From NCBI GenBank assembly GCA_964016885.1, contig OZ024740.1, positions 336,784,001-336,848,000 on the forward strand: DNA of 64,000 nucleotides, read 5' to 3'. The DNA is from Eledone cirrhosa. Taxonomy: Eukaryota. Positions within the stretch are counted from its first letter, which is position 1. Every line of letters begins with the position of its first letter. A model generated the notes under the pieces. It was not told the origin of the DNA. It made no database searches and worked only from the letters and a program-made list of their open reading frames with translations. The position numbers were made by a program, and so were the translations under genes. Positions 32,082 through 57,783 of this stretch are shown here, piece by piece.

Positions 32082-32392
32082 TCAGCACATGACAGCCTGT
32101 GGTACAGGATATTGGGAAAGTTGTGTAGCTGATGGAACCAAGTCCAGTTTACATTGACGTTCTTCAAGAGTTTTTAACAGGCTCTGGCACATATTTACAG
32201 CACGTTTGTCCTGCAATGTGCCATAAAGATGTGCAGCTTCTTCAACCATCTGTCTGCGACTTCGATTGTGGCCACCAATTGATTCACATGTAGATGTGGC
32301 AGTTGGTAAGTGACAGCTGGCTAGGATTAATGCTGAGGCTTCATCGTGATTGCCAATATGACTTTTATTATCATGATTTGAAGTGTTTTCAT
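32082..32392 (-). CDS. SREBF: SREBP terminal coding exon
   Basis: TTGTCCAG| phase 1. DENTSN...DEASALILASCHLP...RRQMVEEAAHLYGTLQDKRAVNMCQSLLKTL...QAVMC-TGA. Confidence 0.9.
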
Positions 32393-32971
32393 CTGGACAA
32401 GAAATAGATTTTTAAAAAATAAAACTTACTTTTATTAGTTATTCAAAGCGACAAGGTCAGTAAAGAAATTACATAAAATAAACATTTTAGTCATCAACAT
32501 CATCATCGTTTTTATATCCATTTTTTTCACGCTGGCATGGGTTGCATGAAATGTTTTGAGGCAGAATTATATCCCCATATGCTCTCACAATACCAACTTT
32601 CACTTGGGTCTGCGTGTGTGTGTGTGGGGGGGGGGGGACAGTCTGAACAATGAGACTTCTGTTTATGCAGACATAAACAAACATCACAAGTGATGTAAAA
32701 TTTGAAGCAATGATGAAAAGCACCCAGTTAGTGGTAATGCTGGTGCCATAACATAAACACTCAGTCCACTCTATGAGTTGTTGTTGCCGGAGTTATGTTG
32801 AAATGCTCCCGGTACATGTAAAGTTGCTGGTGTTAGGAAGGGTATCCAGTCGAAACCAAACCAAACTTACAAGCAAGACGTGGTCATCTGATCAGTCCAG
32901 CCTCAGTACATGACAATTTGTCTAACCTATACAAGCATGGAGAATAGACATTGAATGATGATGATGATATA

Positions 32972-33171
32972 TACGTGGGTAGGCTGAAAAATTCATAGGC
33001 TGACTATGAAGGAGTGTTGCGAGAGTTGTGAAATCTTGCATACATTAATTTCAACTCTTATTAATAACTGCATTATTTCTTTCGAGCGGACTATGTTGAA
33101 AAATAAACCTCATTTGGTCATTCCATGAGAGTATCTTAGTCAGCCTATGAACTTTTCAGCCAACCCTCATA
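32972..33171. mobile_element. Mariner-type MITE
   Basis: TA-flanked TIRs of ~33 bp: CGTGGGTAGGCTGAAAAATTCATAGGCTGACTA ... TAGTCAGCCTATGAACTTTTCAGCCAACCCTCA. Confidence 0.8.
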
Positions 33172-33268
33172 TATAACCAAGATAGGAATGGACATCACTA
33201 AGTTTTAAAAGGCCCAAGACAGTGCTCTTACGACTCCATTACAAGTTAAGGAACCAGTGAAATATATA

Positions 33269-34553
33269 CAGGGTGTGGACGATATTTATTCGCAATTTTC
33301 AACTGCTAATTTTATGCAAATTTTTTTTACTTCCGTTGTCACTCTTGTCTTCATAAAAACAGTGACTATATTTCCATTATTTATTTTCAGAATAATTGAT
33401 TATAAATAATTTTGAACCTACAAATTTGTGGAAGAGACACGGAGTTCTTCTTGGAATCTGTGCCGGGAGGACAAATAAGGAAATTTCAGACTTTCTCAGC
33501 GTCAGCAGGAGAATGGTGGAAAAGGTCAGAAAGGAATTGGAAGATTCAGGATTTGACTACGAAGCAACTTCAGAGAGGAAAACACATGATCGACGATCTG
33601 ACGCCTTCAGAATGCCCGAGTTTGTCGCTGAAGTTCAGGATATCATCAACAATGAACCTAGCAAGTCGATGCGTACCATTGTAAGGGAGAAAGGCGTGGA
33701 TGAAGAGCTCATTAGGCTGGTGGTACATGAAGACATTCGCTACGTTTCATACAAGATGAGGAAAGGACAATTTTTGTCAAAAGTGATGCAAGAAAAGCGA
33801 CTGAATCACGCAAAGAAGCTGATCAACAAGTTGAAACACCCACTGGAGCCAGACATGCTGTGGTTTTTCTTCGACGAGGAATACTTCTGCCAAGACCAGA
33901 AGATCAACTCCCAGAATAACAGGTGGCTTGCTGTCTCATCCAAAGACGTGCTCAGAGTCATGGAGACAAAGTTTCCAGCGACAACATTGGTCTTAGGTGT
34001 CGTCAGCAGTCAAGGTGACGTCATGCCACCTCACTTCTTCCCTGAGGGCCTCAAGCTGAACACCGATGGCTACATCCGCGTTCTGAGCGAGGTAGTAAAG
34101 CCCTGGATCGACCAGGTAGCTGCAGGTAGGTCGTACGTGTGGCAGCAAGACTCAGTGCCCTGCCATACTAGCCGAAAGACCCAAGCCTGGCTGTCAGAGA
34201 ACATCGTCGACCACACTACACCTGACATATGGCCTCCCAGCTCGCCTGACTACAACCCCCTCAACTTCTTTGTGTGGGTACAGTGGAACGAGACACCAAC
34301 AGATCTAGCTGCAATACGAAAGACGATCTGAAAGCTAGGATCACAAGTGCCTAAGTCGGGGGACAGTGACGAGGGCCTGTAACCGGTTCCGAGGCCGTCA
34401 TCAAAACCAATAGCGAGTTTATCGAGTGAGATCGAAAGAACAAGTCATGAAGACAAACTGACCCAAGTTTGATAAATATATCTTAAAAAATAAAACTACT
34501 GTGTTATTTTTTCCTAGACAGTAATCTTGCGAAAAAATATCGTCCGCACCCTG
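33269..34553 (+). mobile_element. Full-length Tc1/mariner-superfamily transposon, maT (DD37D) type
   Basis: 27-bp TIRs CAGGGTG(T/C)GGACGATATTT(A/T)TTCGCAA, TA on both sides, 1285 bp long, with an internal transposase ORF. Confidence 0.93.
33396..34331 (+). pseudogene. maT transposase, probably inactive
   Basis: Motifs WFFFDE, WQQDS and SPDYNPLN. There are 37 residues between the second D and the third catalytic position, which is N here. The C-terminus appears frameshifted after FFVW. Confidence 0.85.
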
Positions 34554-35927
34554 TATATATACAATTTCCATTATCAATTTTGTTTACAAAGCACTGAGAA
34601 ACCCAACACTTATAGTAGAAGACACTTGCCTAAAGTACCTCACAATAGAATAGAACCTGAAACTACATGGACATGAAACAAACTTCTTAACCACACATAC
34701 TTCGGTTTTTAAAAAGTGATCTGACTGATAAGAGACCCTTCGCTGAACAACACATTACAACCACTCACGTGCATACATATATATTCCCACTTAATACACA
34801 TATCTCTCTTCCTACAAAATGTTTCCAACCCCCACCCCCGTACAGAGGTTCAAGCTGATCATCACCACATCAACAACTTAAAGATCTATTGTTGTTCCTA
34901 GGAGTAAAAAGGTTAAGCATGCCTATGATCAAAAATTTTCTAGTAATGAACTAGAATCACATCTAAGGGAAACTAGAGATTGTATGATATCATTGAACAT
35001 TCACTGACTTGTCAATGTTAGATTGAAATATATCTTAGCAAGTATTTTCTGAACTAAAAATAGACTGATTGTCCTTGTAGCGTGTGGAAACTGGAAGATT
35101 CCAATTGAAATTAATTCTAATTCTTTTACTATTTAACTGAATGCAGTCAATTGGTTGTAGCCATTCTGAGACACTGCTTTAAAAAGATTTAGTCAATCAC
35201 ATCAACTTCAGTACTTATCTATTTTAAGTCTGATACTTATTATATCAATCTCCTTTTATCAAGCCACTAAGTTACAGAATATAAACACACACAATATCAT
35301 CTGTTTTACTATGCTTGCAATGGGACATGACAGACTTCTTCAGTTTCCATCTACCAAATTTCAATCGAGGCACTGATCTACCAGAGGCTATAGTAGAAGA
35401 CACTTGCCCAATGCATCACACAGTGGAACTGAACTCAAAACTATGCAGTTGCGAAGCAAATATCTTAACCACACAGCCATGTTGGTGGCTATGAATATAG
35501 ATGCTAATAATAATGTAAATTTCTAACTTTGACACAAGAGTACATATTTTGGTGGAAGAGTATAACTGATTTACTCCGCATGACCTGAAAAGGGCAAACA
35601 GCAAATCAACCAGTGGTATTTAAGCTTAGAATGTAAAAAAAATATATATGCCACATGCCCCTAGGTAACTTAGTGCAGCATTCAAACATTTCTATAAATT
35701 GCTTCTAACATAGCCACAATGCCAGATTTGGGAAGGGGCAATTGATTAAATTTGCCTCATGTAATTGACTGGAACTTCATTTTTTTTTTTTTATCCTGGA
35801 TGAACAAGAGGCAAAGACCTGGGCATAATGTAAAGAGCCAGAACAAATACTGCAAAGCATTTATCTGACTCTTTAACAATTATGCCAATCTACTGCCATT
35901 AATTAAGACCGATTTGCAATAAAATAC

Positions 35928-36036
35928 CTTCTTTTCCTTTGCCAGCACGTCTTCGAAGACTTTGATCTAAAAGTTGTTGAGTACGATATGGGTTAGCACC
36001 AACCATGATGCGTGCTGTGGCCTCATATAGAAATAC
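35928..36036 (-). CDS. SREBF: SREBP exon
   Basis: [30 protein letters not shown] (cf. [30 protein letters not shown]). AG/GT boundaries, phase 0 to 1. Confidence 0.96.
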
Positions 36037-36414
36037 CTGAAATTACACAGGAAAAAACAAAATATTTATGAATATTTAATAATTTCAACTGGGAAAACTA
36101 GATTTGACAGAAAGATCATGACACAAAGTAATATTATACAAGTCTTCCATTCTTTGGTAGTGTTTTCAATTAAAGAGTGAAGGAAAAAAAAACAGTCTAA
36201 CTAGTCTATTCACATAATATTAATATACCTGCCATATATGGACGTTAATGAACGAGGTTGATGATATATTTATTTGTGTATATATGTGAAGTGTGTATGT
36301 ATATGTATGATATGTGTATGTATATTACATATATATACGTGTGTATATCATTATCATGATATGTGCATGCATGTGTGTATAAATATATATATATATATAT
36401 ATCTAAAAAAAAAA

Positions 36415-36698
36415 AGTCTAATGTCTTTCTTGAGCCAGAAGGGTCATTTGGCCGGTGCTTATCCCGGTTTCATGGCGTGTAGCGACTTAGAGTACAAGAC
36501 TCCCCCCTAGACAGGACGCCAGTCCATCGCAGGGTTAAACCTCCAGCTATTGCTGGTACTCATTTTCAGCTGAGTAAACTGGAGCAACGTGAAATAAAGT
36601 GTCTTGCTCAAGGAAACAACACATCACCCGGTCCAAGAATTGAACTCACAACCTTTCGATTGCAAGCCTAATGCTCTAACCACTAAGCCATGCGCCTT
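36415..36698 (-). mobile_element. tRNA-derived SINE, same head as 17951 but a different tail
   Basis: Head and central region match 25340-25479. The 3' part (36415-36560) is unrelated to the RTE tail. Confidence 0.8.
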
Positions 36699-36724
36699 CA
36701 CATATATATATGTATATATTATGC

Positions 36725-37018
36725 TGGTACCACAAAATATCCAGCCCACACTGTAAAGTGATCGTGTAGGTGTCACGACAAAAAGCACCCAGCCCACAAT
36801 GTAAAGTGGATATGTAAAAGACACAGCAAAAAGCACCCAGTACACACTGTCAATGTGGTTGGCGTTAGAGAGGGCATCCAGCTGTAGAAAACCAGCTAGA
36901 AACACTCCTATATGAGCGAGACACGGTCACCTGACCCAACTTGCCTCTAAATGGGACAAACCCGTCTAACCCATGCTAGCGTGGAAGATAGACGTTAATT
37001 GATGATGATGATGATGAT
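36725..37018 (+). mobile_element. RTE 3' tail fragment
   Basis: cacactgtaaagtg repeats, then ccatgctagcgtggaagatagacgtt and (GAT)n. Confidence 0.8.
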
Positions 37019-38200
37019 AGCCATTGTCTGTAGATATACATTACTATATGTAGTCATATCGTTATCATGTAAGGGTGGGTGGTTGTCACAGACCAAGTCA
37101 ATACTTGATCAGTGCTACTGAACTCTCAGATAGGCCTGGGGATGCATCTCATTAACATACATTCCCACACTCTACAGAATATACTGAGTACATTTTATCA
37201 TGGCACCAGCACTAGGGAGGTAGTCATGTCTTTTGACATGACTGAGGAGTCCTTTCGACTCCTTGTTTGGCATGTTTGTAGATATACATAGTCCATAGAT
37301 ACTATAGTCATAGTCTGTATAGTCATTATCAATTGATATCACAATACTATGTTGTCGTAGTCCATTCATATCACAGTACTATGTATAGTCAGTCTACTGA
37401 TATTACAGGGTTCAAAGATTAGATATTTGAGAATGAACCTGAGATTCAGGTCAGATATTTTTTAATCAGGAATATAACTTTATATTACCAAGCAAGATCA
37501 ACAAAAGTGTGACTGTTAGGGTATTTTGTATACAATAATTGAGTTACTGCTAACATATTTGAGTATGCAGCAACAACTAAACATGGTAACTAGAAATAAT
37601 TATGCAGTGAAGAAAATAGTGTTTCGCATCATTTGGCAAGTCTGTGAGATAACTTAGTGTAGTTTAGACATCAGAGAAGCAAGAAATAAATGTATGATAT
37701 TTTGTAGGTATGGAAAAACTCTTAAACACTAGTTGCATGAAAAAACAACAGTTAGGTTACCGCTGACATATATAATACGGAGGACATCAAATATGTTAAC
37801 TAGAATTAAAAAACATTTGGCAAGTCCAACAGATAGTCCAACAAATAAAGGAACTTTAATATTAGGTGATAAAACTAACAAGGGAAATAATTCAGTAGTA
37901 AACTTGTTAGATTATTGGTTACTGTGTAGTGATACAGACAAGATGCTGTAATGTATAGTTTTCTGCCCCACTTGTATGTTTCAAATTAATAACAATGACA
38001 GTTTTGATTGCTTAAGGAGAAAAAGAGGAGACAATCCAACAAAGAGTTTGCATCTTAATAAAAAATATTTTCTCGATATTCTATGTATATGTGTTCTGTG
38101 TTGTGACTGACTGGAGGATATGGGAGACACAGGAACAGTACGGCTATCAATTGTACCACTCCCAAAAGGTCAATAGTGGTTGTCATGAGGTTACTTCAAA

Positions 38201-38432
38201 TCAGGGTTTCCCAAACTGTGAGTCACAACACTATAATGTATCTCCAATAATCTTTAGGTGTATCACAAAATTAAATCAAAAATAGATAAAGTTTTGCAAA
38301 TATTTGAGATCTGCTAACTCTGCATATAATTAGACATATGATTGATATGATATTTCAGGTCACTAACAAAACTTAATTAATGTGTCATAAAAATACTTTC
38401 GCCACTAGAGTAAAACGTTTTGAAAGCTCTTC
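38201..38432. mobile_element. Old hAT/Charlie-like MITE
   Basis: Starts CAGGGTTTCCCAAACTGTG; the right end (aaacgttttgaaagctct) is degenerate. Confidence 0.4.
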
Positions 38433-38561
38433 TTTAAATACAGACTTTTAGTATGACACCTTTAATAATTCTTATTACTTTGAACAATCAAACAAGTGGT
38501 TCTAATTAAAACAAGTCAACTCTGTATGTTATACTAGAATATAAGAAAAAAAAAACCTCAC

Positions 38562-38738
38562 CTTTTGCAGTGCATGTTTCATGGTATGAGTAACACGACG
38601 GAGGCAGTATAAATCTTGCTGGAATGCAATAATCTGCAAGTGTGATGGTCTGGTATAACTTGGATCTTGGCTCTGGCGTTGTTGCCAAAGTTCTCGACGA
38701 GTACGAAGAAGGAAATCACATGTCAACAATTGGATGCC
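38562..38738 (-). CDS. SREBF: SREBP exon
   Basis: GIQLLTCDFLLRTRRELWQQ...AFQQDLYCLRRVTHTMKHALQK; 177 nt, phase 0 to 0. Confidence 0.96.
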
Positions 38739-41601
38739 CTGTAGTAATATAACAGTTGTTAGTTCAAATATCAAATGTTAAGACAGGTTGAAAGGAAACC
38801 AAACATATGGTTTTCATTTACTTCTTAGATGTCAATTGTCATATTACTTTTGGTATTTATTCTTGTAATAGAAACATTGTCCCAAATAAAATATCTGGAA
38901 TTAAGCAGCTCCTACTCATACAAATATTTTTATGAAAAAATTCTTTGATGTAATTAACAAACCAAGATACACTACAATTCTACACCATGTGTTTTCTCTG
39001 CTGTGTTTTCATTGCTACTACATTTTCTGCTTCTCTCAGTTAACCAGCAGATATCACCAACCCTATGAAGCCCACCCCCATCAACTTGTGCTTCTCCCAC
39101 CATCCTTACAGTGTCTTAATTCTCAAACCCTCCTGCACTAAACATTTCAACTAATCCTTCATCCCTACAACTGCTAAACTCCTCTCCTGCTAATTCCCCT
39201 TACAAGTATCAACTTCAGGCTAAATATCAACGACTGACCTTACCAATATGTAATGGTCTGCCTAGACAATGGGCACTGATCCGCTGTTTTTTTTTTTGCA
39301 GTATGTAATGACAAAACACTTATAGTGAGTGCAAGTGTAACTAAAATATAACCCAAGCTTTCAGGAATTCACTAGTAAGGATGAAAGACAGAGTTAACCT
39401 CGGCAGGATTTGAACTCAGAATGGCAAGGGCCGTAACTCTATGCGTCAAAGCATGGCGTCCGACCCTCTACCGACACTGCCAATCCACCACCATAGTTAA
39501 GTTATGATAATGAACATATCTCAAATTATTAAAGTCATTTTAACATTTCCATTTACACGATGTTGTTCTTCAGCCACTGAACTAGCAAATCTAAGATTAA
39601 GGGTCTTCCAGTGATTCAAACTCAGATTTGTTTTCTGATAATTCTCAAATGTCATATTCCTATGTACATTGGTACAGGCTTGATCTAAACTCAGAACTTT
39701 GATTTCAAAATGATGGCTATTGCATACGCTTGTAGTTCAGTGGATTAACATTCTTCTCTTAGAAATAAAAGTCTTAAGTTCACATACAGCCCGAGACAAT
39801 GTACATATTTAGGAACATGATCTTTATAATGATCAGAAATCAAAGTGATTAAAATGTCTTATAAATGCCAACACAAAAGACGAGGTTAATAGTTCAAAAA
39901 ACTTTATAGAAAATTAAAAACTCATAAGAGGTTGTGTACAAACTATTTTATAGTAGAATTCTCAAAGTATCTTCTTAAAACAACTCAAACCAGTAACTTA
40001 ATTTGACAACTTTATATAGAGTAGCAAAGATAGTTATTTAGTTCAACCTATGCATTTAAGGCCATTTTTTCTGCTAGAGTAGGGGTTAGTCTTGCAGGCC
40101 ACATGATAGACTTCATACTAATTATGGAGTCCTTTTCATAGCAATGTTTTAAGGCCAGATACATTTACCAGTACCAACCCATTTAGTTGCCTATTACACT
40201 GTAAAGATAATATATTGAATAACTCAGAGAGTAGGTAGTTCTCCACATTCCTTTCTACAAAATGTAAAATAGCTGAGAGAGAGAGAGAGGAAGCAAGCCT
40301 CATTGTTTTTACCTCCCAGAAGATAGTTTATAAAACTGAGGCAAATTTCAACATTTTTAATGTTTTTATAATTATATATAATGTAATGTTTGAATTAGAA
40401 AGTAAGACAGGATCATTGTATTGCTGATACCTGTATTTCTGGATTGATACTTTATCAGCAGGTAACAATGAAATATGTGTGAACAAATAGCAGTTGTTCA
40501 ACAGTTAAGTGATATGTTACAAAAGAGTAACCTGATCACAAAACAAGATAGCTGACCTCACACAGTTCTATAAATATCAAATATTATTTTTTAGTGTTCA
40601 CAACACAAAGTCACATGATATTTAATGGGAAGGTAAAGAAAGTTGCAGTGTTCATACATTCCCAAAGTTATTTCAAAAATAATAAAACAGTTCCAACTGA
40701 AGATCAAAAATCAGGTCATGTACTTGATACATGAAAAACTTAACCACTGCATCATAGCATACTTATCATTGTGGCAGTGGTGATGGTGGTGATTATTATA
40801 ATAATGAGCTTTGAATTAAACATATTTCTACCATCTTGACTAAAACCAGTGTAGTTACCTTGCCCATAGAGACAATGTTGACAGTAGATTGAGAAATTAA
40901 CAGCTTAATGCATTATTCACTTCCCTATTTTATGTAATAATTTCTTCCTGGGGAATAAGACCAATATTTGAAAAAGATGATCATGGCTAAATAGATAAAG
41001 TCTGTTTGTTGTTAGTTCTTATTTTATTAATCTAAAAGAGGAAATTGAGCAGACTACTCTGGAATTTATCTCAGAACCTAAGATAAATAAAGATATTTCC
41101 TCTAGTATTCAATTATTTCTGTCAACTCCACTAACATAATTTGTAAGAATTGTTTCGTTTGTTTGTTTTCTTGATATTATCAGATGTTATGGAACTGCGA
41201 AATATGACTAATACTATTAGATTGTGCCCCTAATGAAATACTGTAGACATGAATACAAAAGATAAACCACTATTTCCACATACACATTCGAAGTAGTTAA
41301 AACATCTCAATATACAAAATATGATAGGGTCTTGCATATGCAATATATCATCATCGTTGTTTTTTGTCTCTTTTTCCATGCTTGCATGGGGTGGACAAGA
41401 TATTTTAAGGTAGCTTTCCTGCCTTTCCTGGTGTCAACATATACTATATTTTAAGTTTGGTAAGTACCACTGACATTCATCAAACCACTACACTGCAGTA
41501 AGAACTGCTAGTGAAAGACATAAACAAATACCACGACTCTTCCTGCCTCTCAGGATGGTGTCAATATGAAAACATTAGCAACAACTGATATGTGTGCGTG
41601 C

Positions 41602-41636
<35 letters not shown>

Positions 41637-42302
41637 ACAGATTTCTTCATAGTTTCAATCTACCAAATTCACTCATAAAGTATTGGTTCAGCCTGAGGCT
41701 ATAATAGAACTGAGAGACTGAACCCTTTGTTAAGTTATACTCCAAACACCAATTTAACAATGAGAAAATTAGAAATATTACTAAATCCCTTCAAATTCTT
41801 GATTATTGTTTCAAAATTATCTGCAAATTATAGGAAGTGTATTTCATTAGAAATATGTTAACAAACAGGTTAATGAGATATGAAACCGAGATAAGCTTTG
41901 GTCTTCATGCAACCCATGCAAGCATGTAAAAACAATGACTCTTTCTCTCTCTTTCTATCAACTGATACTAGAAACATTCACTAGATACCGAATACACACA
42001 CATTGCTAATCACTGATAATATACATACATCACAGATATATACATCTACACACAAACTGCAATCCACTTAGAAAAGTAATACTAATATCAGTAGAAATAC
42101 ATACATGTACTTACATACATACATACATATTCATGCATACACATACATACATACACACTGCAATGCAAGAAAAAATGTTAGAGTGGTGATGGTGGTGGTA
42201 GTGGTATTGGTGGCGGCTATAGTGGTGATTGGTGGTGGTGGTCGTCGTAGTGGCTGTGGTAGCTGTCGTCTAAGTCTGGTGTATTGAGCTAGATGATAGC
42301 AA

Positions 42303-42380
42303 CTGTCCCTGATTACACTGTGTATGCACTGCATAATGCAAAGCTAATGCAATGCAACTAACAATGCAAAACAGACACAG
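42303..42380 (-). ncRNA. mir-33: pre-miR-33 hairpin (mature 5p 42369-42348, UUGCAUUGUUAGUUGCAUUGCA)
   Basis: Matches miR-33-5p GUGCAUUGUAGUUGCAUUGCA except G1U and one inserted U. The 3' arm UGCAGUGCAUACACAGUGUAAUCAGGGACAG pairs with the 5' arm. Basal UG at -14/-13 and CAUC (CNNC) at +16. Sense orientation within an SREBP intron. Confidence 0.93.
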
Positions 42381-43862
42381 TCAAAAGCAGCCACATCAAC
42401 ATTAGGAGACACAGATTTGAAGCTGGTGATGTCGGGAAACAGGCTAGCCAGTAAGATGCAGGATGGTAGACAGACACAGGGGTGCAGGAAAACAATAAAC
42501 AATGCAGCACAACTGATGGTAGCAACTGAAACTGCAGCTGGATATAGTTTCAATACAATGGGCTCTCATGATCTGTTTTTGTTCTGACACAAAGCTTTTG
42601 TTATTCATACACACAGAAACAATGTTTTTGTTGTTTTGTTTTTTTTTTGCTTTGGATAATTTCATTTCAGTACTTCTTTATTGCTTTTGCTTTTCTTTAT
42701 TTTTATCAATTTAAATAAATACTTTTCGAAATATTTTTTTATTTTTGGAGACAACTGATAACCTCACATCTGCAATGTCTTCATATTCTGTCATTAAAAT
42801 AAAATTGTTTTTACCCCAACAAGGACTGCAACTATAGTTGATAAAAACAAGTTTGTGAAAGCCTATATGGCTAGGTGATTATGGTGTTGGTTTTATAATC
42901 ATTATGTTGTGGATTCAATCCCAAGACTGGATGGTGTGTTGTGACTTTGAGTAAGCCACCCATTTCGCATTGCTCCAGTCCACTCAAATGAAAAAATTGA
43001 GTAACAGCAGTTAACCTTGCAATAGACTGGCATCCCACCCAAGCTGGTATGTCTTATATTCTCAGCCAGTTAATGCTACATGAAACCAGGATAAGCTCCA
43101 GCCTGATGGGCCACAGGGGCTTGAGGAAGACTTTGTTTTGAGACACTACAGTTAAAGAAAGGCCCAACAGGGGAATAAACAGATGTTATTAAGATGAATG
43201 TGGCATAAATGAATCCAAATTCCTAGTCTTTAGTAATATGATATTGATAATAATAATGATGATTTTTTTAACATAGACGCAGAATTGATTCTGGAAGGAT
43301 GAACGGCAAATATATGACTATCTTTTAAAAGTTGGAACAGAATGAATAAAAACGTTATTGATTTAGTTCAAGGATTCATGATTCATTTAAAATTAGTACA
43401 AAATATATTGCTTAATCTTTTTCATACCAAAGTGCCTAAAATTGCCCCTGGTTCTATGATACAAAACTATTTGTTTCAAAATGTCTAAATTTATCTAAAA
43501 TCTTTCCATCATAAAAAAAAAGCTGGAAAAAATGTCCATACCAAACAAGTTATTGATTACAAAATTGATACATACATGCATCTAAATTTGATCAATTTCA
43601 ATGATTAGGCATAGACATTGTTATGTGGTTAAGAGTTTCATATCAGGTTTGATTCCAGTGTGTGACACCTTGGGTGAGTGTCTTCTACTATAGCCTTGGG
43701 CTGATTAATGCCATGTGAGTGAAATTTAGTATGTGAAAATTGTGAGGAAATTGTGTGCACGCACATGAAAGAGAGAGAGAGTCTGTCTCCATATTGATAC
43801 TGTTTAAAAACAATTGGTGCCGTATGTTTATGCAGTAGTTAGGCAGGCGAAGATCAGTGGAA

Positions 43863-44540
43863 TCATCATCATCATCGTTTAACGTCCATGTTCCACGCTT
43901 GCATGGGTTTGGATGGGAGTTTTCCCACTTGAGGCAAGAATGGTTGTCTTGCTCACATAGGACTGTCTGGCGGGTTTTCTACAGCTGGATGTCCTTCCTA
44001 ACACCAACCACATTTACAGTGTGGGACTGGGAGGTTTTTACCGTGTTGCCTACACAGCCACATTACAGCGTGGACTGTGTGTTTTTTTTGTCGTGACACC
44101 TACACGATCTCATTTGTTTCGGCCTGGATGTTGTGGCACCAACATAACTTTACATAGGAGGGGGCGGTGTGGATGGGGTGGGGGTGGTGGGACGGGGGTG
44201 TATTTTGTTAGAGGTGCCTACTGACTGTAGTAGGTTTTACTTTGTATTTAGGAAGGCGGGTCTTCTCTATTACTGAGTACCGCCAAAGATCTCGGTCCAG
44301 TGACATTGTCTTGGAGAGGTGTAAGTGTGTGAGGTCGGAATTTATCAGGTCGTCCCAGGTTTTTCTGGGTCTGCCTACTCCGTGGCTACCGTCTATCTTT
44401 ATTGCCCTGCACTTTTTTATACAGCTGTCGTCTTTCATGCGCATCACGTGACCATACCAACGTAGCCTTCTCTCGACTAAACAACATCTGATCCCTCTTA
44501 TTTCTAATTTTTCCCTTAGTTCGTTTATGCTTTGCCGTTC
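43863..44540 (-). mobile_element. Young RTE LINE 3' end
   Basis: ORF 44208-44447 is nearly identical to the end of ORF 45507-46430; (CAT)n tail at 43863. Confidence 0.92.
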
Positions 44541-45489
44541 GGAATAGATACCATATTTAAAAATAAGGATGGGTATCAGGAAAGGCTGTAGAATACTGCC
44601 TCAAAATATCTCAACCAATCCATGACATCATGGAAACTTGGACATAAAACAATGAAGACAATGATGAGTCATGTAAATTTGGCATAAAATATATTGATTA
44701 AAGATCGTTTAAGTATGTATTGCCACCATAACAGACACTATTTGCACACAGGTGTAAAGTTTTACTTTTCGTCATTTCATTTATTCAAGATGATTAAAAT
44801 TAGTCATCATCATCGTTTCATGTCCACTTTTTATACTGACATGGGTTGGACAGTTTGTCACAGTCAAAGACTAGATGAATCAGAGGATCACATCTTGCTC
44901 ATATGTTCGATTTTGGTATTGTTTCTATGACTGGACGCCTTTCCTAATGCCAACCACTTTACTGAGTATACCAGGTGCATTTTATTGTGGCACCAGCACT
45001 ACCACATACTGAGTGCATGAGCTGCATTTCATTGTGGCACTAACACTGTCACTTTGTAATAATGTAATTCCTAATGTCATTAAAAATTTCAAATTGATCT
45101 ATTTTTACCTGCTGTTTTTGCAACTCAGTAATTTACAGCATATTTTGAAACTCTCTTAAGTTTTGGAGTATCATATATTGAAGAACATTTAGTTAAGGAG
45201 AGAAGGACAATGCCCATGGCCCTTTTCAGGGCTCCAAACACTGGTGGGAGAGAAGAAGGGAGGAAGATATCCTCAAACCAGAGACCTGGTCCAAATGCTT
45301 GCAACAGAGGCCACTATAGGGCAAAGTGGTGGTGCTAAACTGGATTATGGATTAAGTCTACCATCCATGTAGGCCATACCAGGATTTCAAGTTAGAACCA
45401 ATAAGATGGAACAAATACCATAAGGCATCTCATCAGATGCTCTAACATTTCCAACAATCCACTACTCTAGATCGATAATTTATTTATAA

Positions 45490-46935
45490 CGCTCATAGCT
45501 GAATCAATGGCTGAACTAGAGAAGAAATTCCAAACATGGAAGCATGGCCTAGAATCAAAAGGCCTTAAAGTTAACTTGTCTAAGACTAAAGTTCTAGTTT
45601 GTAGGAAGGAAAATAGGGCACCGGTCCCATCTGGGAAATGGCCATGCTCAGTGTGTAGGAAAGGAGTAGGCAGAAACTTCATTTTATGTCCCAAATGCAA
45701 AATATGGGTACATAAAAGATGTAGTGGGATCACAGGTAAGCTAACTAAGAATATAGATTTTATATGTGGCCGGTGCTCTGGTGCAATAAGTAGCAGCAAG
45801 TGCCCACAGAATACTAACTCATTCCATTGCACAGATGGTTCTATAGAAATAGTGGACAGCTTTCGTTACCTGGGTGACAAAATCAGCAGTGGGGGAGAGT
45901 GCTCTGAAAGTACAGTAGCTAGAGTCAGAACTGGATGGAAAAAGTTCAGAGAGCTTATACCACTATTGGCCGCTAAAGGGTTCTCTCTAAAAATGAAAGG
46001 CAGGCTGTATGATGCCTGCATACGAACAGCAATGTTACATGGCAGTGACACCTGGGCATTGTGTGCAGAGGATATACGCAGACTGGAGAGAAACGAAGCT
46101 TGCATGCTCCGCTGGATGTGTAATAGTAATATACGTGAACGGCAAAGCATAAACGAACTAAGGGAGAAATTAGGAATAAGAGGGATCAGATGTTGTTTAC
46201 TCGAGAGAAGACTACATTGGTACAGTCACGTGATGCGCATGAAAGACGACAGCTGTATAAAAAAGTGCAGGGCGATAAAAATAGACGGTAGCCACAGAGT
46301 AGGCAGACCCAGAAAAACCTGGGACGACTTGATAAATTCCGACCTCACACACTTACACCTCTCCAAGACAATGTCACTGGACCGAGAGCTTTTGCACTAC
46401 ACAGTTATACAGAAGACCCGCCTTGCCTAAGTACAAAGCGAAACCTACAGTCAGTAGGCACCTCTAACGTCCCACTACCCCCACCCATCCATACCACCCC
46501 CTTAAATGTGAAGTTATGTTGGTACCACAACATCCAGTTCGAAACAAATGAGGTTGTGTAGGTGTCATGACAAAAAAACACACAGTCCACGCTGTAAAGT
46601 GGCCGTGTAGGTAACACGGTAAAAACCTCCCAGTATACACTGTAAACGTGGTTGATGTTGGGAAGGGCATCCAGCCGTAGAAAACCCGCCAGGCGTGTAG
46701 GTGTCACGACAAAAATACACAGTCCACGCTGTAATGTGGCCGTGTAGGTAACACGGTAAAAACCTCCCAGTCTACACTGTAAACATGGTTGGTGTTAGGA
46801 AGGGCATCCAGCCGTAGAAAACCCGCCAGACAGTCCTGAGCAAGACAACCAATCTTGCCTCAAGTGGGACAATTCCCGTCCAGACCCATGCTAGCATGGA
46901 AGATGGACGTTAAATGATGATGATGATGATGATGA
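45490..46935 (+). mobile_element. 5'-truncated RTE LINE (C-terminal RT, PHD-like finger, 3' tail)
   Basis: ORF 45507-46430 has CSVC..CPKC..HKRC..CGRC, FRYLG and GRPRKTW. Tail ends in (GAT)n. Confidence 0.93.
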
Positions 46936-47273
46936 ACCCTGAAAGAATGAAAGCTAAAGTTGACCTCAGTGAGATCTGAAAAGACGGCCAGAAAAAATAT
47001 GGTAAAGTATTTGCCCTATGCTGTAACATCTCAGCCAATTCACTACTTTTTGGTATCAGTATATCAAATGACACACACAAAAATTGTAATTACCTCAAAG
47101 AAATGGTATGAAACTAAAGTTTAATAAAGAAACATTTTTTTTACCTTTTGTTTGAGTAATAACTTCTTTCAATTATCAAATATTAGCAATACACATCAAG
47201 TGTAATAAATAAAGCTGAAAAATATTACAATATCTGCTTAATTGAAAAGATAAAAGTCCAAACTACAGCTTAC

Positions 47274-47445
47274 TTTAATAATATCGTCATGTTCAGAACT
47301 CTTTTCAAATTTAAGACTTTCGCGAAGTAAGCGTCCAGCATGATCGCACTGGCGGAGTATGCTAGAGTCAGAAACATTTTGAGTACTGGACAGGAATCGG
47401 CGTCGAGCTTTGTAGGCAAAGAAGACAGCTTTAGGAAGTGGATCA
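47274..47445 (-). CDS. SREBF: SREBP exon
   Basis: DPLPKAVFFAYKARR...CDHAGRLLRESL...DIIK; phase 2 to 0. Confidence 0.95.
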
Positions 47446-49110
47446 CTGTAGAAATAAAATGGGATAGAATAAACCAATGAACAATAAAATAAAAACTGAT
47501 AAAGAAATTTAAAATTAATTGTTAGGATCATATATGAAAATATATTAAAAATATCACAATAAAGAAGTAAAGAAAATCCTTACAAGATTTAGATTCAAAT
47601 CTATAGAATACGTTCAAAATATGAACTCTTTATTTCTGTTCCTCAAAGTTATCTTCTAATATATTCTTAAAACAAGTTTCGTGATTTTAGGTGTGCTTTG
47701 TGATTTCTGTTGTCTAGCATCAAATTAGCCCTGATTTAGTAGACCTATGATCAAAGTTGTTCCAGCTATGATCATCCTGTTTTTTCTTTAGGCATCAACT
47801 TCTCTAGTACTGGTGCAATGAAAAATACACCCAGTACACCCTGTATGGTGGTTGGTGACAGGAAGAACATCCAGCTTTAGAAACTATACTAAAAAAAAAG
47901 GGATGAAAGGACTCTCTAGTTGTGTCGAGGGCACAACCTCTATAATGTTGGTGACATGATAAATTGTAAAGTGGTTGATGGAAGGAAAGGCATCCAGTTA
48001 TAGAAAACTTGCTAAACAAAGGGTTGAGAGGGTCCTATAATTATGTCAAAAACATGACAACCTGCCTAGCGCTGATGCCACAATAAAATTAACCTTGTGC
48101 ACTCTGTAGAGTGAGGGAATGTATATAAGCAAAATGCAACTCCCTTAGCCCATCTGAAAAGTCAATAGCTTTGATTAAGTTCTGACTTAGTCTCTGACAA
48201 CACATCCAATCCTTGCTAACAGGGAAAACAGATGTTGAATGATGATGATGTTTCTGTAGCCTAGACTATGTTATTCAATGTGGCCTTTTTGAAGATAGTA
48301 GGGTGTGATTTGAGGGAGATTTGGCTTCTATTTCTAGTTGGTTAAGTGACCAAGTAAAATCCACTTCATTGGCTGGTGATTGTGGTTGTTGCAAAGAAGA
48401 GTAATCAGTGGACAGATAACGATGATGATGATGATGACCTAAGCTGTAATGATATAGAAATTTTGATTCTAACATTCTCTATTGGCTTTTATTATTGACA
48501 TACCATATGTATATTAGTTTTCTTCAAAAAGGAAAGGAGCTGATCATCAGATTGGACCAAGAAAACTATATTTCTATTGGTCTTTCCATTGTTCATAATA
48601 TCTACTGATCACAACTTCTAGCAAAAGGAGGAGGTGGGATTTAGACTTAGGATGCACAGAGCCAGATTAGATACCATAAGGCATCCTGCCAGTCTCTAAC
48701 AGTTCTGCCAATCCCTGCCTCTAGACTGGTACTTTATTTATTGACCCCAAAAATGATGAAAAGCAAGTTACCATTGTTGGGATTTGAACTCACAAGACCA
48801 GAACAAATACCAAAGTATTTAATTTAATACTTTAACAACTCTGCCAATTTGTCACCTAAAAAAGCTACACCATATTCTTGAATGACATAAGGAAGAAAAG
48901 AGTTGAAAAATAAATTTTAATACAGAACACCCACTTTATCTGCTTACAAGTTCCAGGCTTTAACATATACAGGTATAAACAGATAAGCTCTTATCCCACA
49001 GACACATCATCATCATCATCATCATCATCACCTACTACAGATATATAGAAATATTATAGAAACATGTCATCAGTCACGCATAAAACAAAACACAAAGTGT
49101 TAATTCTTAC

Positions 49111-49261
49111 CTTGCACCAATAAATTTCTTGGGGAAAACATCGAGAAGATGAAAGTTTCGTTCAGCATTTCCATAATCACCAGTGAACCAGTAAGTTGCC
49201 ACATTGACAATAGCTGACCACCACCGAGCTATTTCATCAACATCCAACACAGAAGGAACCA
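49111..49261 (-). CDS. SREBF: SREBP exon
   Basis: DVDEIARWWSAIVNVATYWFTGD (cf. DPVAKWWAS..IHWL..D); phase 1 to 2. Confidence 0.94.
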
Positions 49262-49678
49262 CTGATAATAAAACAAAAGATGTCTTACTTAATACTTTGG
49301 TCATGCTGGCCCAGTATTCCAGTCCCAACAATGTTTGATTGTACTCAACCAGCTCAATATACCATTCACACGCCTCTGTTTACTACTGTTATTTACACTA
49401 ATTTCTTCATGAATCAGTAAATATTGCTTTAGTCTGAGGTTTTCAGTAAAGTATATGTCAAATTTCAAGTATGATTGACAAATATAATTTTTTCAGTGAT
49501 TTTTTGTGAACATCTAGGTTTGAGATCTGCACATATTGTAGAGGGTCAGAATTCAAAAAGTTAAACATGTTACAATAGAAACAACAGATCTGTGAAACTG
49601 TCTCCTTTCACTCAATAAACTTCAGTTATATTATCAGTTACATTATAGGACTGGTAACAGTATTGTATCAAATAGACC

Positions 49679-49725
<47 letters not shown>

Positions 49726-50053
49726 CATCTGCCCACCCACCCTAGGGTAGTGAGGTGATGACATTGTGTTGATTGACAATATTATATATAGAACACTTGA
49801 CTCAGCCCTGGGTAGAATAGTGATGATAATTTGTTGATAAACTATTTATGTATAGGTATACAGTGTTTCTGGACGATATTACAGCACACCTATTCCACTC
49901 ATTATAGTACATTGGTTATGTTACAATGATGGTGAAACACAAAACAACTGACAGCAATTTTGTAAAATTTAATCATAGTCACAGGGACACACTAGTTTTT
50001 TGAGACAATCTAAATCTTTCACTCACTAAAATATAAAGAAACCATATTCTTAC

Positions 50054-50169
50054 CTTGATTGGGCAGCTTTGCAGAGTCTTGAATAAGAATTGTTGATTCT
50101 TTAGACTGTAAGCAAGAACAATCTGCCAAAAGCTGGGTGTATTGTGTCACCTCACTTATAAAACTAGTT
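50054..50169 (-). CDS. SREBF: SREBP exon
   Basis: TSFISEVTQYTQLLADCS (cf. ALGYLQLLNSCS); phase 2 to 1. Confidence 0.88.
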
Positions 50170-51005
50170 CTGAAAACAACAAAGATAATTAATAGATGCA
50201 AGATTAGAGTTTCTAACTTCTAAGCATTTTAAAACTTTCACATATTTATTTGTACTAGTCAAGATATTTCTACATTTTTCTTATTTTCCAAAATTTTATT
50301 TTTCACAAGTACAAAGCTTCACATTTATAAGACACTTGGAAATTAGATTGTTTGACATTCATGTCATCATCATGAACATTAATTAGATAAATTAACTGAA
50401 AAGCAAAACCTATTCCCTCAGCTCATATAGCTCAGTGATTTCATCTCATGTAGCACACTGGCTGGTCCATACTACAAAGATCCCGCAACTCATGAAGTAA
50501 CTGACAGACCATAGCACTGATTCCTTCACTCATGTAGCACACAGCCTAGTCATCACACACATAGACGTTCAATGATGTTGATGATGATACAGAGTATTCC
50601 TGCATGCCGTAATAGATGACTAAAATAGTTGATATATGGATGAGCATTTAGCCATAAAAAACTGCTTCAAAAAGTTCCATTCAACCCATGCCAGTATGGA
50701 AAAGCAGGCTTAAATATGATTATGATATTTGTGACATAACTTCAGAAAAGTAATGATTTCCCAACTTAAGTAGCACATTAGTAGGTGTGTTAATTAAAAT
50801 ATGAACATTTTAAAATGAAAGGTACAGTATCACAGATGCAAAGATGGTCTAATTTAGATAAGTATCAACAAGAAATAAAAATCTTAATTGGTCAGTGAGT
50901 GTAAGGTCATAAATTTAAAAGAACTCTCCACATTGGTTATAAAAAATATGTTGAATATTTTGAAAAAAGAAATATATTTAAAATTGCCAAAGATTGATAC
51001 AGTAC

Positions 51006-51099
51006 CTTTCCCATTTTTGAGATGGATTGTTCAAGATAGCAAGTGACTTAGCTAAAAGGTGTTCGCGGAAGTGCCTAGTCACAATAGCCAGGGGATCAA
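51006..51099 (-). CDS. SREBF: SREBP exon
   Basis: DPLAIVTRHFREHLLAKSL (cf. DPLAQVTQLFREHLLERAL); phase 1 to 2. Confidence 0.95.
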
Positions 51100-52019
51100 C
51101 TGAAAAAAAGAATTAGCAAAAAAAAAAAAAATGAAATGTAGGTTTTATTTGATGGCAAGAACATTTGATCCCTAATTATGTAGACAATGTATTGGATACT
51201 GATCCTAAATATCATGGGCCCTTAACTCATGGTGTTGAGAAAAGACGATAGAAGAAATTGATACCTTCAAACAGGGATAGGTTTCCATTATTTGGTGTAA
51301 CAGACAATATCACTCACTACAGACCATTTATCAAAACTCTGTAGAAACCTTCCAAGTAACTAAAACATTGATTCCACCACAGAACCAAGCAAGTTCTTCA
51401 TACATCCATAGATGCAAAACCTTTGACACATCATCAGTGTTATATTCTGGAGTCACTGAGTGTTTCAGGTCTTAGAACATACACCTTGATATAGGTGACA
51501 CAACCAAAGTTGATCATGCCTCAGTCAGTATCCAAGTACATACTACTGACTCCACCAACCACTTCTTTTCATCTAAAGGCATCTAGATGCCCTCTCTGCT
51601 ATTTCCATGCTATTCCTGATAGTTCTCCATCTGTTTGCTCCCATAATGTCCAAAGTTCCATAGGCTTTGCTAAGAGAACAAGCTACAAACCTCAGCTACC
51701 TATCTCTAATGATATACACCTGGTCCTCCACCCATTCCTGTGGCAGTCCTGCACCAAGTCTTGTTATGTTGCTCAAAAGCAACAATATTATCATTTTGTT
51801 GATAATCCCAGTTTTTTTATCCCGCTTATTTAACTTCATTTATTTTATAACATGCATTTTATGAAAAATAGAGCCGTTGATTATAGGTTTCTAAAGGGCT
51901 AATCATTGGTTTACTACAATTTATGGTGGTGAGAGTAACACAAGAAATCTGTGCAACTTGGGCTATATATATACTACAAAATATTTTTGCTTAAATATAC
52001 TGGTTTATCAGTTTCTCAT

Positions 52020-52186
52020 ATCATCATCATCATCATCATCGTTTAACGTTCATGTTCCACGCTTGCATGGGTTTGGACGGGAGTTTTCCCACTTGAGGCA
52101 AGAGTGGTTGTCTTGCTCGCATAGGACTGTCTGGCGGGTTTTCTACAGCTGGATGCCCTTCCTAACACCAACCACATTTACAGTGG
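52020..52186 (-). mobile_element. RTE 3' tail, near-identical to 43863-44022
   Basis: Direct comparison of the two segments. Confidence 0.88.
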
Positions 52187-52446
52187 TGAAAAATAAACAG
52201 ACACACAATAAGATTTCATACAATTTCTGTCTTCCAAATTTAACTCACAAGGCATTGTTAGAACCATAGTTATGGTAGTAGATACTTTCTCAAGGTGCTG
52301 CATAGTAGGATCAAACTCAAAACCATGTGGTTGTGAAGCTAACTTCTGAACCACATAGCCATTCCTATTACCACTCTACAAGTAATTCTTGAGAATATAT
52401 TTAATGAATGAAAAAATAAATGTTTTTATTTTCATTTTTTTCTTAC

Positions 52447-52609
52447 CATTATTCCCAATACTGGAGAAAGAATTTTCTTCAAAGCTTATATCCCAGAAAC
52501 TGTCAACAAAGAATCGGTAGCCATCTTTATGGCTTAACCACTGAATATAAGCTGGAACTTTTCCTTCACTGCGAGAACAAGCATGGCTTACTTTATGGAG
52601 GAAATACCG
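52447..52609 (-). CDS. SREBF: SREBP exon
   Basis: RYFLHKVSHAC...VPAYIQWLSHKDGYRFFVDSFW (cf. [22 protein letters not shown]); phase 0 to 1. Confidence 0.95.
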
Positions 52610-53543
52610 CTGAAAGAGAAGAGATAAATCATAACTTTAATTGAAAAAATTCTAACTTTGGCTTCAGTATCAAAAGATTCTTGAATAAGAATTATTAAAC
52701 AGTAGAAGATGTTAAATAGTAAGTTAGTTATTGTTTTATGTGATTCTCCATGCTTGCATAAGTTAGATGAAGCCTGGAGTTTATCCCGGTTTCATAGGCA
52801 TTAAATGACAGAGTACAAACTATCGCATGACTCACTCTGATCTCTAAACCTCCCAGCTGCTGCTGGTACTCATTTATATCTGAGTGAATTGGAGCAACAT
52901 GAAATGAAGTGCCTTGCTTAAGGAAATAACATATCATGAAGCCCGAGATTCAAGCTCACAGCCTTATAAACATGAGCCATGCCAGTATAGTAAATCAGGG
53001 ATAAAAATGATGAAGGTGATGTTTCGTATTTTGTAAATCATGTAATCAGCTTAGACTTTGATTGTTCTGGGACTTTATTAAGGGAAGATGAGAAAGTGAC
53101 CGTAGAACATTGAAATTAATGTTTCATCAGAATTTACCAACAACAACGTGATGGAAACAGCATGAAATAGCTTCCAATAGCTATTACTAAAATTAAATTA
53201 TATATGCAAATAAACAGTATGGCCATAGTTTAATGACTGAAAACAGAGTGTCATCATCTTCATCGTTTAAGGTCTATCTTCCACACTAGCATGGGTTAGA
53301 CGGGAATTGTCCCATTTGAGGTAAGATTGGTCGGGTGACCATGTCTCGCTCGTATATGACTATCTGGCAGGTTTTCTACGGTTGGATGCCCTCCCTAACA
53401 CCAACCACATTTACAGTGTGGATATATATATATATATATATATACATATATCACTGATGATGATGATATATATATATACACACATCATCATCTGTCTAAC
53501 CCATGCTAGCATGAAAAATGAATGTTAAACGATGATGATGATA

Positions 53544-53575
<32 letters not shown>

Positions 53576-53886
53576 ATGAAGAAATTGTTCTAAAGATAAG
53601 CAATTACTTGAGGACTAATAAAAATGAACAGGGAAATAGTTTTACGATTGAAAAGATTATCTCAGATTAATGATTTTAAACCTAACATTCTCTACATACA
53701 TTTGTTTATCATCATTCATGTTCTTTGTACTTTAAAATACTCAACTAGACATTATTACAGAGCATGGTTGTTTTCAATTAGTAGATTAATAACCGGGAAG
53801 ATTAAGCTAGCTTAAGAACAGTGGGGCCTAATCTACTTAGTGATTTGGTATAAATCTTCAAGTAAGATCAGTAAAATGCAACTCAC

Positions 53887-54053
53887 ACAGAGAGATTTCA
53901 AATTAAAAGGAGCACTCTGATGGATTGTTATAGCAGCTGTAGCATATATCTCAGCTAATGTAGCAGTAGGAAGCATTTCTCCAGCAGCTTCAGCAAGGTT
54001 GACAGCACACAGAGCCAAGTTAATCCCATATGCTGAACTGCCACTAGTGTGAC
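53887..54053 (-). CDS. SREBF: SREBP exon
   Basis: NLALCAVNLAEAAG...ATLAEIYATAA; phase 1 to 0. Confidence 0.96.
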
Positions 54054-55362: not shown

Positions 55363-55399
<37 letters not shown>

Positions 55400-55603
55400 C
55401 AAAGAATGCAGTTTCCAAAAATGTTTCCTCTTCAGACTGCACTTTCAGTACTACTATGTGGACAATCATCATGACTAAATAAAGGACAATATATCATTTC
55501 TAACAGTCTAAAGTCCAATGCCACATACTCTGAGGAGGGGACAGCTGATTACATCAGATTTTCTCAATAAATATTATGCAAGAAATTGCTAGAGAGCACT
55601 TAC

Positions 55604-55865
55604 CAGTAAGATGGAGTTGATGAAGTCTGTGGTAAGCTAGAGCAGCATTTACAGCAGACTGTTTCACTTCAGATGCCTCAAATTCTTTCGACCATAGACC
55701 ACCAGCTCTGTTACTTAGCCATCTTCCTAGGTAGATGTAATGTAAAAACTGACGTAAGGAATGCCAAGCCAAACTGGCAACCAGGTCAATCTTAGATGCT
55801 GGAAGGGGTCGACCAAGAGCAAGAAGGCCAAGATGTAACTGTTGAGCAGCTGCTGCATAGTTTCC
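55604..55865 (-). CDS. SREBF: SREBP exon
   Basis: GNYAAAAQQLHLGLLALGRPLPASKIDLVASLAW...AALAYHRLHQLHLT; phase 0 to 1. Confidence 0.96.
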
Positions 55866-57212: not shown

Positions 57213-57385
57213 CTGGCTGATGTATTGATCAGATTGTTTTTTGTGTCTCCAGTAAGCTACTGATGCTTGACTGTTCTTAGATTTAACAGGTTCACCATAC
57301 ACAAACATCATTAACAACATGATTAATATGAAAACACTGTTCAAGACTTGTGGCAGGAATGCCCAATATGAGCTCTTTTCTTCAT
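57213..57385 (-). CDS. SREBF: SREBP exon (TM2 and start of regulatory domain)
   Basis: VLNSVFILIMLLMMFVYGEPV...AYWRHKKQSD (cf. FVYGEPV...FWRHRKQADL); phase 1 to 0. Confidence 0.96.

Positions 57386-57727: not shown

Positions 57728-57729
<2 letters not shown>

Positions 57730-57783
<54 letters not shown>
57730..57783. repeat. (TA)n microsatellite
   Basis: Directly visible; other (TA)n tracts at ~49683-49722, 53422, 55375 and 58022. Confidence 0.95.

What the first reader, a model, noticed from the sequence alone, without database searches (positions are those of the whole stretch)
42303..42380. Intronic miR-33 hairpin inside the SREBP gene, in the third-from-last intron
Seen: the minus strand reads CUGUGUCUGUU-UUGCAUUGUUAGUUGCAUUGCA-UUAGCUUUGCAUUA-UGCAGUGCAUACACAGUGUAAUC-AGGGACAG, which folds into a long stem. 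It has UG exactly at -14/-13 and CNNC 16 nt past the predicted 3p end. It lies sense to SREBP in the 8.5-kb intron before the QLLTCD exon. Known: miR-33 is hosted in SREBP introns in mammals and Drosophila and co-regulates lipid metabolism. Inference: this is the orthologous intron (human SREBF2 intron 16 of 18, recalled rather than aligned), so the SREBP/miR-33 unit is preserved in a probable mollusc despite heavy TE turnover around it.
Basis: partly seen in the sequence, partly recalled or inferred. Interest (0 to 1): 0.75.

Follow-up and report, generated by a model that had tools for sequence, protein, structure and literature searches.

The report
Octopus miR-33 inside its SREBP gene
An octopus lipid-control gene (SREBP) carries a miR-33 microRNA hairpin in the same intron as in many other animals, an ordinary and already described arrangement that likely lets the gene also damp fat-burning genes, and the only oddity is two small changes in the predicted mature RNA outside its seed.

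Summary
The hairpin folds at -44.7 kcal/mol (z -3.5) and matches Rfam mir-33 (39.6 bits, E 1.6e-7, under the gathering score of 50). It is the only match in the 3-Gb genome by three searches. It lies sense in the 8,535-nt third-from-last intron of an octopus SREBP gene.

Intron orthology is now tested. Of 22 SREBP-linked miR-33 loci from other animals, 17 have the splice acceptor at the same codon and phase.

The unit is already published for a mollusc (oyster, PMC4138081), and an O. vulgaris Mir-33 has 4,334 reads in one library (PMC9699675, table S4). No reads could be laid on this locus.

One extra: the predicted mature arm has U for G at nucleotide 1 and one extra central base, and the star arm facing it has changed. 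The seed is unchanged, and an assembly error for the extra base is not excluded. Seed sites lie behind CPT2, CrAT and ACAT1 but not CPT1 or HADHB (suggestive, partly post hoc).

This scan had no earlier miR-33 note. Verdict: real, ordinary, low interest.

The parts
42301..42382 (-). pri-miR-33 stem-loop, from the basal junction to the loop and back
   Evidence: fold; Rfam RF00667 at 42309-42374, 39.6 bits, E 1.6e-7
42348..42369 (-). predicted mature miR-33-5p, 22 nt; seed identical to oyster miR-33, U instead of G at nt 1, one extra base at nt 9/10
   Evidence: comparison with cgi-miR-33-5p and 14 homologous hairpins; start consistent with A at nt 5 of Ovu-Mir-33_5p; ends not shown by reads
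42311..42331 (-). predicted star strand (3p); may end at 42312
   Evidence: pair table and 2-nt overhang rule; oyster star begins at the same C
42382..42383 (-). basal UG at -14/-13
   Evidence: present in only 3 of 15 homologs tested
42292..42295 (-). CNNC motif 16-17 nt past the 3p end
   Evidence: present at +16 to +18 in 12 of 15 homologs tested, background 0.119
38739..47273 (-). host intron of SREBP, 8,535 nt, phase 0, third from last
   Evidence: same acceptor codon and phase in 17 of 22 SREBP-linked miR-33 loci
47274..47445 (-). SREBP exon upstream of the host intron
38562..38738 (-). SREBP exon downstream of the host intron (QLLTCD exon)
32082..58358 (-). SREBP gene, last 12 coding exons (58358-58176, 57385-57213, 55865-55604, 54053-53887, 52609-52447, 51099-51006, 50169-50054, 49261-49111, 47445-47274, 38738-38562, 36036-35928, 32392-32082); the bHLH exons lie beyond the window end
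   Evidence: all AG/GT, one open frame of 691 aa, 92.8% identical to O. bimaculoides P0001 and 38% to human SREBF1 P0091; five further exons in the next 16 kb; HLH domain in P0001

Best explanation
This is the single miR-33 gene of an octopus, sitting sense in the ancestral intron of its SREBP gene; it is likely co-transcribed with SREBP, likely cut out by Drosha and Dicer as a 58-59-nt precursor, and predicted to give a 22-nt 5p guide with the standard miR-33 seed that likely represses fat-oxidation genes while SREBP drives lipid synthesis. Shown here: the sequence, the fold, single copy, the host gene, and the intron position shared with other animals. Taken from papers: 5p dominance and the SREBF host in oyster; an expressed Mir-33 5p in O. 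vulgaris; CPT1A, CROT, HADHB and ABCA1 as mammalian targets. Inferred: processing at this locus, co-transcription, and the octopus targets.
For: Rfam mir-33 is the best family, full length, E 1.6e-7. One locus in the genome by DNA search, by the Rfam model (67 of 459,424 candidates scored) and by an exact pattern with or without the extra base. Standard geometry: 13 nt on the 5' side and 11 nt on the 3' side between the basal junction and the predicted cuts if the 3p end is 42312. In the 18-pair consensus of 15 hairpins the window keeps 16 pairs. Intron orthology: 66 metagenome loci held the core pattern; 22 carried SREBP exons, all on the hairpin's strand; 17 of 22 had AG at the same codon and phase as here, 3 could not be tested, and 2 lay in another intron (the 17 include duplicates). 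Two mammalian SREBF1 models break at the same column (P0012 ends there, P0039 has a gap that starts there). Oyster miR-33 lies in SREBF on the same strand, with 68,375 5p against 138 3p reads (PMC4138081). Ovu-Mir-33_5p has 4,334 reads in axial nerve cord and an A at zero-based position 4, which fits a start at 42369 (numbering checked with three oyster miRNAs). Full seed sites (8mer) lie within 2 kb of the stop in 4 of 10 carnitine-acyltransferase and thiolase genes against 0.48 expected; 1 of 419 control words does as well.
Against: No read has been placed on this locus, and the Ovu-Mir-33 sequence itself was not seen, so its identity with this hairpin is inferred. The score is under the Rfam gathering cut-off (39.6 against 50). 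The alignment shows 0 pairs with changes on both sides, which is expected of an invariant guide but adds no covariation support. Co-expression with the host is weak in oyster (r 0.58) and not supported across chicken tissues, and fly miR-33 is reported as directly regulated by E2f1, so simple co-transcription may be incomplete. Target test: both CPT1-like genes and HADHB, the classic targets, have no site within 2 kb. The CROT site lies in a repeat beyond the first AATAAA, which leaves 3 of 10 (p 0.013). The 2-kb window was fixed after six genes had been seen, and the four genes tested afterwards gave 1 of 4 (p 0.18). UTR ends are unknown.
Confidence: 0.93

Rival explanations
1. The gene is a normal miR-33 but the extra base at nt 9/10 is an assembly error in a two-base U run, so the true guide differs from the canonical one only at nt 1.
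For: The extra base lengthens a short run, a typical long-read error (own knowledge). The star arm has no matching insertion. The hairpin folds slightly better with one base fewer, -37.3 against -36.2 kcal/mol. None of the 18 metagenome matches with an extra base has SREBP beside it.
Against: Three star-arm positions facing that spot, nearly invariant in the 14 homologs, have also changed, as have nt 1 and one more star position, so this region has really been remodelled. The energy difference is about 1 kcal/mol.
Confidence: 0.12
2. The hairpin is a real miR-33 but is made mainly from its own intronic promoter, uncoupled from SREBP, and works chiefly in neurons.
For: Fly miR-33 is reported as E2f1-regulated and targets Trio in neurons (PMC12866572). 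Host and miRNA correlate weakly in oyster. The one octopus read count seen is from nerve cord. The hairpin is 4.9 kb from the upstream exon.
Against: The same strand and the same gene in 22 of 22 SREBP-linked loci argue that the host link matters. The nerve-cord row is a single maximum-mismatch entry, not an expression profile.
Confidence: 0.2
3. The hairpin is a decaying, silent miR-33 relic.
For: Sub-threshold Rfam score; changes in an otherwise invariant guide and star; no sites behind CPT1 or HADHB.
Against: Intact seed, stem length and flanking motifs; the only copy in the genome; thousands of Mir-33 reads in O. vulgaris.
Confidence: 0.03
4. The hairpin is a chance fold or a repeat-derived stem.
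For: 18 of 66 metagenome matches to the pattern with an extra base look like chance hits, so the core word does arise by chance; 37% of the intron is repeated DNA.
Against: The hairpin is unique in the genome, its star arm also matches the family, and it lies in the very intron that the family occupies elsewhere.
Confidence: 0.005

Closest known systems
Ovu-Mir-33 of Octopus vulgaris (MirGeneDB name; PMC9699675 table S4; seen: one row and part 3 of 3 of that supplementary file, plus passages of the main text)
   Same: Same family, 5p arm, A at nucleotide 5, an octopus; probably the same gene or its direct ortholog.
   Different: Its sequence and host gene were not visible to me, so identity is inferred; the main text has no mention of Mir-33 or SREBP.
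cgi-miR-33 in SREBF-1 (CGI_10004108) of the oyster Crassostrea gigas (PMC4138081; seen: passages and supplement rows)
   Same: Mollusc, intronic in SREBF, same strand, same seed, star begins at the same C.
   Different: The oyster guide is the canonical 21-mer with G1; the octopus guide has U1 and one extra central base. The passages seen do not give the intron number.
Human miR-33a in SREBF2 intron 16 and miR-33b in SREBF1 intron 17; chicken SREBF2 intron 16; rabbitfish srebp1 intron 16 (PMC5027541, PMC3953336; seen: passages)
   Same: Same seed family and host family; mammalian SREBF1 models break at the same protein column as the host intron here.
   Different: One copy found here against two in humans; the intron is at least number 15 from the 5' end; CPT1 and HADHB lack nearby seed sites here. 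No human genomic DNA was aligned, and '18 introns' is recalled.
Drosophila miR-33 in SREBP (PMC12866572; seen: passages)
   Same: Intronic in SREBP, stated as conserved from fly to human.
   Different: That paper reports an E2f1 input and a neural target, Trio; neither was tested here.

Membership tests
mir-33 (Rfam RF00667 / MirGeneDB MIR-33) | Seed (nt 2-8) identical to known miR-33-5p | tested here: met
   identical to oyster cgi-miR-33-5p and to 14 homologs, given a start at 42369
mir-33 (Rfam RF00667 / MirGeneDB MIR-33) | Best match to the family covariance model over its whole length | tested here: met
   positions 1-69 of 69, E 1.6e-7, best of 13 matches
mir-33 (Rfam RF00667 / MirGeneDB MIR-33) | Rfam gathering score of 50 bits | tested here: not met
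   39.6 bits. This is a curators' threshold, not a biological criterion; the hairpin would not enter Rfam's own member list, but seed, star and synteny place it in the family.
mir-33 (Rfam RF00667 / MirGeneDB MIR-33) | Sense position in the conserved SREBP intron | tested here: met
   17 of 22 SREBP-linked loci share the acceptor codon and phase
canonical Drosha/Dicer microRNA | Stable hairpin with a basal stem of about 11 bp, precursor near 60 nt, loop of 8 nt or more (criteria recalled) | tested here: met
   z -3.5; precursor 58-59 nt, 16 nt between the arms, basal junction at -13
canonical Drosha/Dicer microRNA | Processing motifs UG, apical UGU/G, CNNC (named in PMC6943042) | tested here: inconclusive
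   UG and CNNC are in place, apical UGU is absent; chance rates 0.08 and 0.119
canonical Drosha/Dicer microRNA | Reads from both arms with homogeneous 5' ends and 2-nt 3' overhangs | not testable with these tools
   no run was listed; only an indirect count for O. vulgaris Mir-33 5p was seen
SREBP transcription factor (host) | bHLH domain, two membrane segments and the C-terminal regulatory domain | tested here: met
   bHLH exons in the next 16 kb, PF00010 in P0001, 38-44% identity over about 680 aa to named SREBP1 proteins; membrane segments judged by alignment only
SREBP/miR-33 lipid circuit | Repression of CPT1, CROT, HADHB and ABCA1 (PMC3420088, passages) | tested here: inconclusive
   no site within 2 kb for two CPT1-like genes or HADHB; CROT site in a repeat; sites behind CPT2, CrAT and ACAT1; ABCA1 not tested; UTR ends unknown

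The most novel reading that the evidence does not exclude
Octopuses have remodelled one of the most invariant animal microRNAs (U at nt 1, an extra central base, a changed star arm, same seed) and have moved its targets within fat oxidation, from CPT1 and HADHB to CPT2, CrAT and ACAT1. The SREBP/miR-33 circuit would then be kept at the level of the pathway while its target genes turned over.
Probability: 0.2. Interest if true: 0.45.

Novelty: already known. Interest (0 to 1): 0.17.

Why it matters
As it stands it confirms, for an octopus, a host-gene and microRNA pairing already known from oyster, fly and vertebrates. It adds a direct test that the intron position is shared across many animals. 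It would matter more if the changed guide and the shifted set of seed sites are real, because that would be a clean natural case of a conserved regulatory job kept through new target genes.

Tried and rejected
Reads: the one search for sequencing runs (RNA, library word miRNA) listed none, so no reads were laid. This is no evidence either way.

Library searches: Rfam at the gathering threshold found nothing in the window. Pfam found nothing for four single SREBP exons or the NIPBL frame. The PDB gave no SREBP match for the QLLTCD exon. Other Rfam hits near the locus (mir-297, mir-1277, mir-466) fall on a simple repeat at about 42084-42163 and were rejected; mir-92 on the hairpin scores 19.6 bits.

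Genome: a whole-protein search for SREBP paralogs got no answer, so single copy is shown for the hairpin, not for the host. Exon 1 of SREBP was not found in 80 kb upstream. One search had an off-by-one exon end, corrected. No 8mer or 7mer-m8 site lies in 6 kb behind the SREBP stop itself.

Papers: searches for the octopus guide sequence in full text found none, nor did the supplements of PMC9699675 that could be read or that of PMC11701709. Data S1-S4 of PMC9699675 could not be unpacked and may hold relevant annotation. Searches on miR-33 with octopus, cephalopod or mollusc gave only the oyster paper as relevant. Two primary papers on mammalian targets were not held, so a review was used. bioRxiv 10.1101/2021.09.01.458616 (passages) notes only that Mir-33 changed linkage group in vertebrates.

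Rows dropped: 15 of the 22 SREBP-linked loci went into the motif count and 14 into the alignment; duplicates and long-loop or truncated hairpins were left out. The CROT site was discounted as lying in a repeat.

Full report
Observation. The stretch 42280-42400 folds at -44.7 kcal/mol, z -3.5, with 0 of 200 shuffles as stable. Rfam finds nothing in the window at gathering scores, but with E-values the best match is mir-33, RF00667, at 42309-42374(-): full model, 39.6 bits against a cut-off of 50, E 1.6e-7. With the guide starting at 42369, UG sits at -14/-13 where the basal stem ends, and CNNC sits 16 nt past a 3p end at 42311 or 17 nt past 42312. These two motifs have chance rates of 0.08 and 0.119 in this intron. 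In 15 homologs CNNC is in place in 12 and UG in 3.

Host gene. Twelve exons between 58358 and 32082 on the minus strand all have AG/GT ends and join into one open frame of 691 aa. It is 92.8% identical to an O. bimaculoides bHLH protein (P0001), 44% to a snail SREBP1 and 38% to human SREBF1. The bHLH exons lie just past the window: five more coding exons were found in the next 16 kb, and exon 1 was not found in 80 kb. The hairpin lies in intron 47273-38739 (8,535 nt, phase 0), third from last and at least number 15 of at least 17 from the 5' end. Repeated DNA covers 37% of this intron but not the hairpin.

Copy number. The hairpin has one match in the 3.0-Gb genome by DNA search, by the Rfam model (67 of 459,424 candidates scored, so a lower bound) and by an exact pattern that allows the canonical form too. 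No canonical copy was found elsewhere.

Is it the orthologous intron? A scan of metagenome contigs for the miR-33 core gave 66 loci, 48 without and 18 with an extra base. Twenty-two of the 48 and none of the 18 carry SREBP exons, all on the hairpin's strand and all with G at nt 1. In 17 of the 22 the next exon begins with AG at the same codon and phase as in the window; this count includes two exact duplicates and some near-duplicates. Three loci could not be tested, and two (L036, L057) have the hairpin in the bHLH intron. Two mammalian SREBF1 models also break at this column. Papers place miR-33 in intron 16 of human and chicken SREBF2 and of rabbitfish srebp1, and in intron 17 of human SREBF1 (PMC5027541; PMC3953336; passages read). 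No human DNA was aligned.

What is already known. In oyster, miR-33 lies in an intron of SREBF-1 on the same strand, with 68,375 5p and 138 3p reads, and the authors drew the parallel to humans in 2014 (PMC4138081; passages and supplement rows). Table S4 of PMC9699675 lists Ovu-Mir-33_5p with 4,334 reads in axial nerve cord and an A at position 4. The rows for Mir-124, Mir-71 and Mir-153 fit only zero-based numbering when set against the oyster sequences, so nucleotide 5 is A, as a start at 42369 requires. I did not see the O. vulgaris sequence. Fly miR-33 is likewise described as intronic in SREBP (PMC12866572, passages). The search for runs listed none, so processing at this locus is inferred.

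What differs. Against oyster and 14 homologous hairpins, the predicted guide has U for G at nt 1 and one extra base at nt 9/10. Three nearly invariant star positions opposite, and one further star position, have changed too. The seed is intact, so the target set should be largely the same, with supplementary pairing shifted by one base (inference). The comparison set is biased, because the pattern could not find other divergent forms. The extra base could be an assembly error: the star has no matching insertion and the fold is 1.1 kcal/mol better without it. The changed star positions argue for real remodelling.

Mechanism. Most likely the hairpin is cut from the SREBP pre-mRNA by Drosha, diced, and loaded as a 5p guide that lowers fat-oxidation transcripts while SREBP raises lipid synthesis, as described for mammals (targets CPT1A, CROT, HADHB, ABCA1; PMC3420088, passages). 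I looked for full seed sites within 2 kb of the stop in all six carnitine-acyltransferase-family genes and all four thiolases that the genome searches returned. CPT2, CrAT, CROT, ACAT1 and HADHB were named by PDB matches; CPT1-like, ChAT-like, ACAA2-like and ACAT2-like were named from recalled motifs. Four of 10 have a site against 0.48 expected, and 1 of 419 control words does as well. Against this: the CROT site is in a repeat beyond the first AATAAA, leaving 3 of 10 (p 0.013); the window was fixed after six genes had been seen; the four tested afterwards gave 1 of 4 (p 0.18); and both CPT1-like genes and HADHB have none. This is a lead, not a result. Weak host correlation in oyster and chicken and E2f1 control in fly leave room for an independent promoter.

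Verdict. A real, single-copy miR-33 in its ancestral SREBP intron. Novelty: already known. Interest 0.17.

Noticed in passing
L036 (hairpin near 3643) and L057 (near 2221), against L061: Two metagenome contigs carry a canonical miR-33 hairpin in the bHLH intron of SREBP instead of the usual intron. L061, from the same assembly as L057, has it in the usual intron. This may be a duplication or move of miR-33 within the gene in some invertebrate.
   Followed up: partly
window 2995-2 (-): A 998-codon stop-free frame matches human NIPBL (E 1.7e-153) with no intron across it and runs off the window start; an intron-poor gene or a retrocopy is possible.
   Followed up: partly
window 60696-59230 (-): A LINE-like frame of 489 aa with a reverse transcriptase and a PHD finger sits in an SREBP intron; similar-looking fragments occur at about 44600-44211, 13308-11758 and 61418-60662.
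   Followed up: partly
L003, about 5100-4880 (-): An early SREBP coding exon holds a run of about 60 glutamines, and the next exon a second Gln/Pro-rich run.
   Followed up: no
L013, L016, L049, L051, L054, L055, L065, L072: Several canonical miR-33 matches fold with unusually long loops or no compact hairpin in 96 nt; three of them (L049, L065, L072) lie in the usual SREBP intron.
   Followed up: no
window 42369-42364 (-): With U at nt 1 the predicted guide begins with the same six bases as oyster miR-153-3p; the seeds still differ at nt 7.
   Followed up: no
window 64000-62981: A tandem repeat of about 27 nt gives a 340-codon open frame of repeated units.
   Followed up: no
L078 and L081 (G000 C27 and C10): The genome has two CPT1-like genes on different contigs (named from recalled motifs).
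   Followed up: no
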